Below are positions 46,102 through 46,683 of a stretch of DNA of 64,000 bases, piece after piece. The number at the start of each line of letters is the position of its first letter. Position 1 is the stretch's first letter. This stretch comes from Escherichia coli (GTDB lineage: Bacteria; Pseudomonadota; Gammaproteobacteria; Enterobacterales; Enterobacteriaceae), in assembly GCF_029227855.1 (NCBI RefSeq), contig NZ_CP074356.1; one strand, written 5' to 3'. The position numbers and the translations under genes are program-made. The notes under the pieces were generated by a model. The model was given only the letters and a program-made list of their open reading frames with translations, was not told the DNA's origin and did not search any database.

Positions 46102-46683
46102 ATGAATACTTTTGATAATATTGTTTTAAACAGTGAGAAATATAAAAACATTACAATTAATAACAAGGGTGAAAATAATCATATATATATTGGACAAGGT
46201 TATAAAGATAAAAAATTAGTAATAAATTTTTTAGGGCGTGATAGTGTAATTAAGTTAGGTGATAATGTAAATTTTCAGGGGGTAATTACAGTTTCAACAA
46301 ATTCAAGAGTAACCATAGGAAATAATTTTGCATCTACAGGAGGTGTCACAATTATATGCAGAGATGATTGTAATGTATCAATTAATGATGATTGTATGTT
46401 TGCAACATCAATTCTAATCAGAACGTCTGATGAACACTCAATAATAGATTTGCACACTAACGAAATAATTAATAAAAATAAAGATGTTACAATTGGAAAA
46501 CACGTCTGGATATGTGATAACGTTCTGGTTTTGAAGGGGGCAATAATTGGAAGTGGTTCAGTTATAGGTGCAAGGAGTGTTGTGACTGGTACTATACCTG
46601 AGAATAGCTTATGTGTTGGGGTTCCTGCTAGAGTAGTAAAGAAAGATATAAGATGGGATAGAAAAAGACCCTCAAAACTATAA
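46102..46683 (+). CDS. Hexapeptide-repeat (left-handed beta-helix) acyl/acetyltransferase, 193 aa
   Basis: Repetitive [LIV]-G-x-x-x-x hexapeptide pattern (e.g. VTIGKHVWICDNVLVLKGAIIGSGSVIGARSVV); strongly AT-rich coding sequence; lies at distal end of capsule region 2 in opposite orientation. Confidence 0.75.
   Translation: MNTFDNIVLNSEKYKNITINNKGENNHIYIGQGYKDKKLVINFLGRDSVIKLGDNVNFQGVITVSTNSRVTIGNNFASTGGVTIICRDDCNVSINDDCMFATSILIRTSDEHSIIDLHTNEIINKNKDVTIGKHVWICDNVLVLKGAIIGSGSVIGARSVVTGTIPENSLCVGVPARVVKKDIRWDRKRPSKL

What the first reader, a model, noticed from the sequence alone, without database searches (positions are those of the whole stretch)
46102..46683. Convergently oriented hexapeptide acetyltransferase at the distal end of the capsule locus
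A 193-aa left-handed beta-helix acyltransferase with very low GC is encoded on the opposite strand to all other capsule genes and converges on the GalE-like gene. It is a candidate capsule O-acetyltransferase with its own promoter in the AT-rich spacer, which could allow independent or phase-variable modification.
Basis: partly seen in the sequence, partly recalled or inferred. Interest (0 to 1): 0.35.

Follow-up and report, generated by a model that had tools for sequence, protein, structure and literature searches.

The report
Capsule acetyltransferase gene of E. coli K126
This is the acetyltransferase gene of a rare, already catalogued E. coli capsule type (K126); it most likely adds acetyl groups to the capsule sugar chain, it is unusual only in pointing the opposite way from its partner genes, and there is no convincing evidence of an on/off switch.

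Summary
A 193-aa hexapeptide-repeat acyltransferase is encoded at 46102-46683 (+), at 30% GC. It converges on galE, and every other capsule gene is on the minus strand.

The window is an E. coli chromosome. Its four serotype-specific proteins are MD5-identical to K126_9 to K126_12 of a published 2026 capsule catalogue, so the gene is already listed as a K126-specific gene.

Its closest solved relatives are the capsule O-acetyltransferases NeuO (E 1.7e-31) and OatWY. The catalytic His112 and Trp136 are conserved.

The same cassette (GT4, a dual GT107/GT29-like enzyme, GalE in four of five, then the acetyltransferase) occurs in Rahnella, Aeromonas and three metagenome loci. There the acetyltransferase is the last gene on the same strand, and in four of the five an ops element precedes kpsM. 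Only in E. coli is it flipped, outside the ops-led kpsMT operon, with its own ribosome-binding site and terminator.

A copy left beside a different capsule type has decayed (frameshifts, His112Tyr, IS3 truncation).

No promoter can be demonstrated. No NeuO-type repeat exists; the only tracts are (AT)5 and G5.

Verdict: an ordinary, uncharacterised capsule O-acetyltransferase with a locally unusual orientation. Phase variation is not supported.

The parts
46102..46683 (+). Acetyltransferase CDS (193 aa), identical to K126_12 of the published catalogue; left-handed beta-helix, NeuO/OatWY-like
46091..46096 (+). Shine-Dalgarno-like GAGGAG, 5 nt before the ATG
   Evidence: read from the sequence; conserved in the 92%-identical copy
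46435..46437 (+). Codon for His112, aligned with the catalytic His147 of NeuO and His121 of OatWY
   Evidence: alignment, residue roles from PMC3046976; invariant in 33 homologues; changed to Tyr in the decayed copy
46507..46509 (+). Codon for Trp136, aligned with Trp171 of NeuO and Trp145 of OatWY
46181..46190 (+). (AT)5 tract inside codons 27-30; it is (AT)6, a frameshift, in one metagenome K126 scaffold
46278..46282 (+). G5 run in codons 59-61; carries +1 G in the decayed K51/K108-type copy
   Evidence: the -1 G variants are probably sequencing errors
46717..46757 (+). Terminator-like hairpin (perfect 10-bp core AAGGATAAAC/GTTTATCCTT) followed by a T-run, downstream of the acetyltransferase stop
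46666..46695 (-). Weak terminator-like hairpin for the minus-strand (galE) transcript, overlapping the 3' end of the acetyltransferase
45651..46101 (+). AT-rich upstream DNA found only with the acetyltransferase (K126 loci and K51/K108-type loci). It holds three promoter-like matches: 45647-45676, 45881-45909 and 46061-46089. None is validated.
45137..45650 (+). Flank shared by 52 E. coli genomes whose kps loci have kpsMT co-directional with kpsFEDUCS; it ends exactly at the stop codon of a conserved 34-codon ORF
46772..47800 (-). galE (K126_11), UDP-glucose 4-epimerase; convergent partner of the acetyltransferase
47812..50214 (-). 800-aa protein K126_10: KpsC-like (GT107) domain, TPR region and GT29-like domain; presumed ulosonic-acid (Kdo) transferase or polymerase
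50221..52179 (-). 652-aa GT4 glycosyltransferase K126_9
52373..53838 (-). kpsT (52373-53062) and kpsM (53059-53838), the ABC exporter
53870..53877 (-). ops element GGCGGTAG (RfaH loading site), 31 nt upstream of the kpsM ATG. It heads the kpsMT-GT4-GT107/29-galE transcript, which excludes the acetyltransferase.

Best explanation
The gene encodes a cytoplasmic, acetyl-CoA-dependent O-acetyltransferase of the left-handed beta-helix (hexapeptide-repeat) family, presumably trimeric. It most likely O-acetylates the K126 capsular polysaccharide of E. coli before export by KpsMT/KpsED. His112 would act as the general base, with Trp136 from the adjacent subunit completing the active site, as in NeuO and OatWY. 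The K126 polymer has not been structurally determined. From the gene set it probably contains Kdo and a galacto-configured sugar. Which residue is acetylated is unknown; Kdo is my guess, by analogy with the sialic-acid-specific relatives. The gene belongs to a horizontally mobile, roughly 30% GC cassette: GT4, a GT107/GT29-like enzyme, GalE in four of the five relatives, and the acetyltransferase. In all five relatives the acetyltransferase is the last gene on the same strand. In four of them, all except Aeromonas, an ops element precedes kpsM. In E. coli K126 the gene has been flipped. It is therefore a separate transcription unit with its own ribosome-binding site and terminator. It must be driven either by an unidentified promoter in the 965-bp spacer or by read-through from the gsp operon, so acetylation is uncoupled from the RfaH-dependent capsule transcript. 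Shown here: the ORF, the family assignment, the conserved catalytic residues, the synteny, the orientation, the ops position and the decay of the orphaned copy. Inferred: enzymatic activity, the acceptor, expression and the promoter.
For: Family and active site. NeuO (3jqy) matches at E 1.7e-31 and OatWY (2wlc) at 6.5e-23, ahead of LacA and Maa. neuO of phage CUS-3 is 35.7% identical over 89% of the protein. Foldseek with an AF2 model (pLDDT 80.5) ranks NeuO and OatWY chains 1-8. Five of the six active-site residues shared by NeuO and OatWY map to M99, H112, W136, W185 and R187. D110, H112, W136 and W185 are invariant in 33 homologues.

Locus identity. The four region-2 proteins are MD5-identical to K126_9 to K126_12 of the published catalogue.

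Synteny. Rahnella bonaserana (L004), Aeromonas salmonicida (L006) and metagenome loci L008, L009 and L010 all carry kpsM-kpsT-GT4-GT107/29-(GalE)-acetyltransferase on one strand. The acetyltransferase is the best-conserved cassette protein: 65% and 52% identity, against 51-53% and 42-43% for the glycosyltransferases. More distant homologues (37%) also sit in capsule loci, for example beside polysialyltransferase-family genes on Sinorhizobium pSymB.

Selection. The copy left next to a different region 2 (K51/K108-like, 12 complete genomes) carries a 4-bp deletion, +1 G, His112Tyr, a 6-bp deletion and an IS3 truncation. At sites conserved in outgroups, 7 of 8 replacements lie on that branch and 1 on the K126 branch. 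The intact protein is present on 89 contigs.

Separate transcription unit. The ops element sits 31 nt before kpsM on the other strand. GAGGAG lies 5 nt before the ATG. A hairpin followed by a T-run lies after the stop codon.
Against: There is no experimental evidence that K126 is O-acetylated; the polysaccharide structure is not reported. No promoter is demonstrated, and promoter-like matches are not enriched over shuffles. AT-rich DNA of this kind is often silenced in E. coli (general knowledge). Arg174 of NeuO, an intersubunit salt bridge, is Asp139 here. Foldseek TM-scores are modest at 0.44-0.49. The four complete K126 genomes are at least 99.9% identical, so they say little about selection. 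One K126 scaffold carries a frameshifted copy.
Confidence: 0.72

Rival explanations
1. The gene is a silent or decaying passenger. After the inversion removed it from the capsule operon it is no longer expressed usefully, and it persists only because the K126 lineage is young.
For: It lies outside the ops-led operon. No promoter is demonstrable. The same gene has decayed in K51/K108-type loci. One K126 scaffold carries an (AT)6 frameshift. The complete K126 genomes are nearly identical.
Against: The ORF is intact with all catalytic residues. Only 1 of 8 polarised replacements at conserved sites falls on the K126 branch, across about 8% nucleotide divergence from the pseudogene. It keeps a strong Shine-Dalgarno sequence and its own terminator. 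The intact protein is on 89 contigs.
Confidence: 0.14
2. The gene is a phase-variable contingency gene. Slippage at the intragenic (AT)5 or G5 tracts, or inversion between the 14-nt inverted repeats at 45864-45877 and 46138-46151, switches capsule acetylation on and off, as the VNTR does in neuO.
For: An (AT)5 to (AT)6 frameshift occurs in a K126 metagenome scaffold. The pseudogene carries +1 G in the G5 run. The 14-nt perfect inverted repeat brackets the promoter-proximal region and the first 12 codons, and only 4% of shuffles reach that length. The closest characterised relative, NeuO, is phase-variable.
Against: The tracts are much shorter than known contingency repeats. There is no tandem repeat in or near the 5' end. 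The G-run deletions in L017 and L023 sit among many assembly-specific homopolymer errors. Every copy seen has the same orientation. No recombinase gene is nearby. The inverted-repeat arms are not conserved in the 92%-identical copy.
Confidence: 0.07
3. The enzyme acetylates something other than the capsule, such as the O-antigen, another glycan, or small sugars or xenobiotics (as LacA, Maa or Vat do), and lies next to the capsule locus by accident.
For: NCBIfam gives weak matches to WbbJ, LacA, Maa, WcaF and Vat families. CDD labels K126_12 'LbH_MAT_like'.
Against: All those models score three- to five-fold below their cut-offs, for example WbbJ at 67.9 against 243 and LacA at 67.2 against 347. 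Capsule enzymes are the best solved matches. The gene is linked to the same capsule glycosyltransferases in five loci from other taxa. It decays when that cassette is replaced.
Confidence: 0.05

Closest known systems
K126_12 of the E. coli transporter-dependent capsule catalogue (Nat Microbiol 2026, PMC13171606)
   Same: Identical protein by MD5 match, as are K126_9, K126_10 and K126_11. It is listed as a serotype-specific gene of the group 2A K126 locus with hexapeptide-repeat annotation.
   Different: Nothing differs in sequence. The catalogue neither discusses this gene nor reports the K126 polysaccharide. The orientation, cross-genus synteny, NeuO/OatWY relationship and orphaned pseudogene copy are added here.
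NeuO, the polysialic acid O-acetyltransferase of E. coli K1 (CUS-3 prophage; PDB 3jqy)
   Same: Best solved-structure match (E 1.7e-31, about 36% identity). Same left-handed beta-helix family. The catalytic His and Trp and three further active-site residues are conserved. Both modify an ABC-transporter-dependent capsule.
   Different: NeuO is phage-borne and phase-variable through a 5' heptanucleotide VNTR encoding RLKTQDS heptads. This gene is in the capsule locus and has no VNTR or N-terminal extension. The locus has no sialic-acid genes, so the acceptor must differ. Arg174 of NeuO is Asp139 here.
OatWY, the capsule O-acetyltransferase of Neisseria meningitidis serogroups W and Y (PDB 2wlc)
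   Same: Second-best solved match (E 6.5e-23). Encoded within the capsule locus. Same catalytic His/Trp arrangement.
   Different: It acts on sialic acid in a hexose-sialic acid polymer. Sequence identity is only 23-24% in the structural alignments.
The cassette kpsMT-GT4-GT107/GT29-(GalE)-acetyltransferase in Rahnella bonaserana, Aeromonas salmonicida and metagenome contigs
   Same: Orthologous four-gene cassette: 65% and 52% identity for the acetyltransferase, with 30-33% GC in every host.
   Different: In all five relatives the acetyltransferase is co-directional and is the last gene of region 2. In four of them an ops element precedes kpsM; none was found in Aeromonas L006. In E. coli K126 it is inverted, separated by a 965-bp spacer from yghD, and convergent with galE.
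Acetyltransferase genes that split E. coli K2a/K2ab and K13/K23
   Same: Region-2 acetyltransferases whose intact or disrupted state is proposed to explain acetylated versus non-acetylated serological variants. The (AT)6 allele here would be the K126 analogue.
   Different: Sequence relationship was not tested. For K126 neither the variants nor the acetylation have been observed chemically.
KL112 rearranged kps locus of E. coli ST131 (bioRxiv 10.64898/2025.12.15.689991)
   Same: kpsMT turned into the same orientation as region 1, region 2 on the outside, and an O-acetyltransferase at the distal end that needs its own (IS1-derived) promoter.
   Different: The KL112 enzyme is CatB-related. KL112 lost PR3/ops and the adjacent gsp operon. 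K126 keeps ops before kpsM and keeps gsp.

Membership tests
Hexapeptide-repeat (left-handed beta-helix) acyltransferase superfamily | Tandem hexapeptide repeats recognised by the family model | tested here: met
   Pfam PF00132 scores 32.4 bits against a cut-off of 27, residues 128-163.
Hexapeptide-repeat (left-handed beta-helix) acyltransferase superfamily | Beta-helix fold | tested here: met
   The AF2 model (pLDDT 80.5) consists of short beta strands only. All significant Foldseek PDB matches are beta-helix acetyltransferases, though TM-scores are only 0.44-0.49.
Hexapeptide-repeat (left-handed beta-helix) acyltransferase superfamily | Catalytic His on a loop plus the conserved Trp of acetyl-CoA-using members | tested here: met
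   H112 and W136 align with NeuO H147/W171 and OatWY H121/W145. Both are invariant in 33 homologues.
Hexapeptide-repeat (left-handed beta-helix) acyltransferase superfamily | Homotrimer with active sites at subunit interfaces | not tested
   Only a monomer was modelled.
NeuO/OatWY-type capsule (polysialate) O-acetyltransferases | Closest sequence relationship to NeuO/OatWY rather than to LacA, Maa or Vat | tested here: met
   E-values are 1.7e-31 and 6.5e-23 for NeuO and OatWY, against 8.5e-17 for LacA and 1e-15 or weaker for Maa.
NeuO/OatWY-type capsule (polysialate) O-acetyltransferases | Six active-site residues shared by NeuO and OatWY (Met134, His147, Trp171, Arg174, Trp220, Arg222) | tested here: inconclusive
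   Five of six are conserved (M99, H112, W136, W185, R187). Arg174 is replaced by D139.
NeuO/OatWY-type capsule (polysialate) O-acetyltransferases | Acceptor is a sialic-acid-containing polymer | tested here: not met
   Region 2 holds only GT4, a GT107/GT29-like enzyme, GalE and this gene, with no sialic acid synthesis genes. The locus supplies CMP-Kdo through kpsF and kpsU. It therefore works like these enzymes but is not a polysialate enzyme.
NeuO/OatWY-type capsule (polysialate) O-acetyltransferases | NeuO-specific 5' heptanucleotide VNTR (poly-psi domain) | tested here: not met
   There is no tandem repeat in the gene and no room for an N-terminal extension.
Serotype-specific (region 2) gene of an E. 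coli group 2A kps locus | Located in a kps locus between conserved kps genes and the chromosomal flank, and catalogued as K-specific | tested here: met
   MD5 identity to K126_12; the locus is assigned to G2A.
Serotype-specific (region 2) gene of an E. coli group 2A kps locus | Transcribed as part of the ops/RfaH-dependent kpsMT-region 2 transcript | tested here: not met
   The gene is on the opposite strand from the ops-led operon.
Named NCBIfam equivalogs (WbbJ, LacA, Maa, WcaF, NeuD family) | Score at or above the curated cut-off | tested here: not met
   Scores against cut-offs: 67.9/243, 67.2/347, 50.2/314, 48.6/326 and 34.9/161.
Simple-sequence-repeat contingency (phase-variable) genes | Long repeat tract in the promoter or 5' coding region, with length polymorphism among isolates | tested here: not met
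   The longest tracts are (AT)5 and G5/A6/T6. Credible polymorphism was seen once, as (AT)6 in one metagenome sample. Other indels are probably sequencing errors.

The most novel reading that the evidence does not exclude
Flipping the acetyltransferase out of the RfaH/ops capsule operon created a new regulatory layer. The gene could be transcribed on its own, or from the gsp type II secretion operon. It would be opposed by antiterminated read-through from galE, so capsule O-acetylation would be set independently of, or inversely to, capsule production. Occasional slippage at (AT)5, or inversion between the 14-nt repeats, would produce OAc+ and OAc- K126 variants.
Probability: 0.1. Interest if true: 0.45.

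Novelty: new member of a known kind. Interest (0 to 1): 0.22.

Why it matters
O-acetylation changes capsule antigenicity, phage susceptibility and vaccine epitopes, as shown for K1/NeuO and for meningococcal capsules. For K126, a rare and chemically undescribed capsule type, this gene predicts an O-acetylated polymer. It also predicts possible acetyl-negative variants, which matters for serotype definitions and glycoconjugate design. The evolutionary picture is a modest extra: a mobile low-GC cassette shared by Escherichia, Rahnella and Aeromonas, with the modifying gene inverted in E. coli and left behind as a pseudogene when region 2 was swapped. It shows how capsule loci are rebuilt. None of this challenges current understanding.

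Tried and rejected
1. Simple-sequence repeats. TRF found only an 11-bp x 2.4 repeat at 45335-45360. A regex scan found homopolymers of at most 6 nt, (AT)5 and (GAT)3. A NeuO-like VNTR is rejected.

2. ops/JUMPstart upstream of the gene. There is none on the + strand. The only exact ops sites in the locus are before kpsM, and at 54928 on the + strand, which is antisense within kpsS.

3. Flanking inverted repeats as an invertible switch. Only short AT-rich matches were found. The best is a 14-nt perfect pair, reached by 4% of shuffles, with no recombinase nearby and no conservation in the 92%-identical copy. I treat it as probable chance.

4. Frameshift alleles as evidence of switching. Most 'truncated' proteins in the database are contig-end artefacts. 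The G5 to G4 allele in L017 and L023 sits among other homopolymer deletions, most of which differ between two assemblies from consecutive SRA runs (SRR12298613 and SRR12298614). I reject it as sequencing error.

5. Reconstructing the inversion. blastx and blastn of the 965-bp spacer and the 88-bp intergenic region against the cassette genes and the relatives' loci found no remnants. A single inversion of the classical layout cannot give the observed order, so the history stays open.

6. Phage or plasmid origin. There is no homologue above 60% identity. neuO of CUS-3 is 35.7% identical.

7. Rfam scan of 45000-46900. Nothing meaningful.

8. The K126 reference record NZ_CP074356.1 is not in the local collection. 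Identity was established through MD5 sums instead.

9. The 34-aa ORF could not be searched in the large protein database because the query was too short. It gave no plasmid tblastn match.

Full report
**Observation.** Its GC content is 30.2%, the same as the neighbouring serotype-specific genes at 30-33% and well below the 45-52% of kpsS, C, D and E. It carries the hexapeptide-repeat signature, with Pfam PF00132 at 32.4 bits against a cut-off of 27. RefSeq annotates the identical gene as 'acyltransferase'. It is the only capsule-locus gene on the + strand. galE (46772-47800), an 800-aa KpsC-like/GT29-like protein, a 652-aa GT4, kpsT, kpsM and kpsS-C-U-D-E-F all run on the minus strand. The two convergent stop codons are 88 nt apart.

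**Where the window comes from.** The window is an E. coli chromosome. The gsp(beta) type II secretion operon (gspC to yghD) ends at 45136 and is followed by a group 2 kps locus. The 2.8 kb around the gene is 99.9-100% identical in only 4 of 5,426 complete E. coli genomes. The MD5 sums of the four region-2 proteins equal those printed for K126_9 (GT4), K126_10 (GT107 + GT29-like), K126_11 (GalE) and K126_12 (193-aa hexapeptide protein). [quoted passage not shown] The locus is therefore K126, a new group 2A type with no reported polysaccharide structure, and the acetyltransferase is already listed as one of its specific genes. [quoted passage not shown] That is the case here: kpsM and kpsT follow kpsS on the same strand, and region 2 lies on the outside.

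**What the protein is.** The best matches among solved structures are NeuO of E. coli K1 (3jqy, E 1.7e-31) and OatWY of N. meningitidis W/Y (2wlc, E 6.5e-23). Both are capsule O-acetyltransferases, and both rank ahead of LacA and Maa. The phage CUS-3 neuO gene is 35.7% identical over 89% of the protein. An AlphaFold model built on 33 homologues (pLDDT 80.5) retrieves NeuO and OatWY chains as the top eight PDB hits. The TM-scores are only 0.44-0.49, so I use the ranking and not the superposition. The NeuO structure paper names six active-site residues shared with OatWY: Met134, His147, Trp171, Arg174, Trp220 and Arg222. Through the HMMER alignment these map to M99, H112, W136, D139, W185 and R187. 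Five are kept, and the salt-bridge arginine is not. D110, H112, W136 and W185 are invariant in the 33-sequence alignment. None of NCBI's named equivalog models (WbbJ, LacA, Maa, WcaF, NeuD family) comes near its cut-off.

**Genomic company in other organisms.** The closest homologues were placed on their contigs. They are at 65% identity in Rahnella bonaserana, 63-66% in three metagenome contigs and 52% in Aeromonas salmonicida. All five loci have the same order on one strand: kpsM-kpsT, a GT4 of about 652 aa, a Capsule_synth/GT29 protein of about 800 aa, then the acetyltransferase. GalE is present in four of the five. The acetyltransferase is the last gene and abuts the convergent kpsS in the Enterobacterales loci. 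The cassette keeps 30-33% GC even in Aeromonas, where the flanking kps genes are 53-63% GC. The acetyltransferase is the most conserved cassette protein at 65% and 52%, against 51-53% and 42-43% for the two transferases. An ops element, GGCGGTAGCGT, lies just upstream of kpsM in four of these loci and in the window; none was found in the Aeromonas locus. In the window it is at 53877-53870 on the minus strand, 31 nt before the ATG. In those four relatives the acetyltransferase is therefore the terminal gene of the ops-led, presumably RfaH-dependent, capsule operon. Only in E. coli K126 is it inverted and outside that transcript. More distant homologues (about 37%) also lie in capsule loci. One example sits beside polysialyltransferase-family genes and RkpR on Sinorhizobium pSymB.

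**Evidence that the gene matters for this capsule.** Twelve other complete E. coli genomes carry the same yghD-spacer-acetyltransferase block at 91.6% identity. In those genomes it sits next to a different region 2: a Stealth protein plus a 1173-aa TagF-like protein, which is K51/K108-like. There the gene is a wreck. It has a 4-bp deletion at codons 23-24, an extra G in the G5 run, His112 changed to Tyr, a 6-bp deletion at codons 126-128, and truncation by an IS3 remnant after codon 174. I polarised the 17 amino-acid differences with the five outgroup sequences. At the eight positions conserved in outgroups, seven changes lie on the pseudogene branch and one (I58F) on the K126 branch. So the gene is maintained when it sits with its cognate cassette and decays when that cassette is replaced. 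The exact intact protein occurs on 89 contigs of the public collection.

**Expression signals.** GAGGAG lies 5 nt before the ATG. A hairpin with a perfect 10-bp core followed by a T-run lies 34 nt after the stop on the + strand. A much weaker hairpin serves the minus strand and overlaps the 3' end of the gene. The gene looks like a separate transcription unit. A promoter cannot be established. Eighteen sigma-70-like matches occur in 45100-47000, against 12.5 +/- 3.8 in shuffles. The best candidates are 45647-45676, 45881-45909 and 46061-46089, and the last would start transcription inside the Shine-Dalgarno sequence. No terminator is predicted between yghD and the gene, so read-through from the co-directional gsp operon is possible. 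Because RfaH-modified polymerase resists terminators (established knowledge), antisense read-through from galE into the gene is plausible but untested.

**Phase variation.** NeuO switches through a 5' heptanucleotide VNTR. Nothing comparable exists here. TRF finds only an 11-bp x 2.4 repeat far upstream. Homopolymers are at most 6 nt, and the only tracts of note are (AT)5 at 46181-46190 and G5 at 46278-46282. One K126 metagenome scaffold, 99.4% identical over 7.7 kb, has (AT)6, which frameshifts the gene. A G4 variant in two Logan assemblies sits among further single-base homopolymer deletions, most of which differ between the two assemblies. I regard it as sequencing error. Other 'truncated' database proteins are contig-end artefacts. 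A 14-nt perfect inverted repeat (45864-45877 and 46138-46151) brackets the promoter-proximal region and the first 12 codons, and only 4% of shuffles reach that length. But no recombinase is nearby, the arms are not conserved in the 92%-identical copy, and every copy seen has the same orientation. Phase variation is not supported. Occasional loss-of-function variants are plausible, as proposed for K2a/K2ab.

**Mechanism proposed.** The product is a cytoplasmic, acetyl-CoA-dependent O-acetyltransferase, presumably trimeric. It would modify the K126 polymer before export, with His112 as the base and Trp136 from the neighbouring subunit. The polymer probably contains Kdo. Three points suggest this: the GT107 and GT29-like domains both use CMP-ulosonic acids; the related K6 locus gave a Kdo-rich product; and the Aeromonas locus carries kdsA/kdsB-like genes next to the cassette. 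The polymer probably also contains a galacto-sugar, given GT4 and GalE. That Kdo is the acetylated residue is only an analogy with the sialic-acid-specific relatives. Confidence that this is a functional capsule O-acetyltransferase is about 0.72. The main rival is a silent or decaying passenger, at about 0.14.

**Comparison and novelty.** The protein works like NeuO and OatWY and belongs to the same beta-helix subfamily. It is not a polysialate enzyme, because the locus has no sialic acid genes, and it lacks NeuO's VNTR. It is identical to the catalogued K126_12. A related situation has been described for KL112 of ST131: kpsMT turned round and an O-acetyltransferase at the outer end that needs its own promoter. 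That enzyme is CatB-like, and KL112 lost ops and the gsp operon. The finding is therefore a new, uncharacterised member of a known kind, and it is already listed in a catalogue. What is added here is the cross-genus cassette, the E. coli-specific inversion out of the ops operon, and the orphaned pseudogene. How the inversion arose could not be reconstructed. No gene remnants exist in the spacer, and a single inversion of the classical layout does not give the observed order.

**Verdict.** The phase-variation idea is unsupported and the promoter is unproven. Interest is 0.22.

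Noticed in passing
window 45546-45650 (+): An unannotated 34-codon ORF (GTG start) encodes MVRVLWWIIGLLIIVVIFAVLVVRSRMQDMDDDY: one hydrophobic helix plus an acidic tail. It is intact in five versions that are 84-100% identical. Changes in the helix are mostly conservative (I/V, A/V/T, G/S), though one version has GGG at the GTG start codon and another has R3C. The tail is invariant. Sequence conservation among 52 E. coli genomes stops exactly at its TGA. It has no Pfam or NCBIfam family and no plasmid tblastn hit. It is probably a real small membrane protein marking the outer boundary of these rearranged kps loci.
   Followed up: partly
window 46772-62228 (-): The kps locus has the non-classical layout kpsF-E-D-U-C-S-kpsM-kpsT-region 2, all on one strand, yet it keeps an exact ops element 31 nt before kpsM (53877-53870). 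At least four different region-2 sets share this layout and the same 514-nt flank after yghD (L001, L002, L003, L012). The rearrangement class is mentioned in PMC13171606, and a related locus (KL112) is described in a 2026 preprint.
   Followed up: partly
window 47812-50214 (-); L004 6523-8937; L006 7657-9999: An 800-aa protein combines a KpsC-like (GT107) domain, a TPR stretch and a GT29-like domain. It is conserved at 43-53% identity in Rahnella and Aeromonas within a 30-33% GC cassette, whatever the host GC. It is a likely ulosonic-acid polymerase, related to the dual GT29-GT107 protein of K6.
   Followed up: partly
L002 12993-13541 (E. coli strain 746 and 11 other complete genomes): A decayed copy of the acetyltransferase lies next to a K51/K108-like region 2. 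RefSeq annotates only an 85-aa C-terminal fragment as 'acyltransferase'. An IS3 remnant abuts it. This suggests region 2 was replaced in an ancestor that carried the K126-type cassette.
   Followed up: yes
L011 (E. coli ST2747, NZ_CP007394.1): A kps locus of the same layout has region 2 deleted, kpsT reduced to a fragment and kpsD frameshifted. This is a capsule locus in decay.
   Followed up: no
window 45864-45877 and 46138-46151: A 14-nt perfect inverted repeat brackets the promoter-proximal region and the first 12 codons of the acetyltransferase. Only 4% of dinucleotide shuffles reach this length. No recombinase is nearby and no inverted copy was seen.
   Followed up: partly
protein collection, cluster of window:46102-46680: The 90%-identity cluster holding this acetyltransferase has a GspJ pseudopilin as its representative and mostly GspJ members. 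This is a clustering artefact, and it explains why the exact protein did not appear among the hits of the homology search.
   Followed up: no
L017 and L023 (Logan assemblies SRR12298613 and SRR12298614): These K126-like contigs carry several single-base deletions in homopolymers, and most of them differ between the two assemblies. They should not be used as evidence for frameshift alleles.
   Followed up: yes
window 62001-63000; also 17001-18000, 28001-29000 and 34001-35000: There are local GC dips (0.36, and 0.41-0.44) outside the capsule region 2. The first lies upstream of kpsF, where the region 1 promoter is expected. The others were not examined.
   Followed up: no
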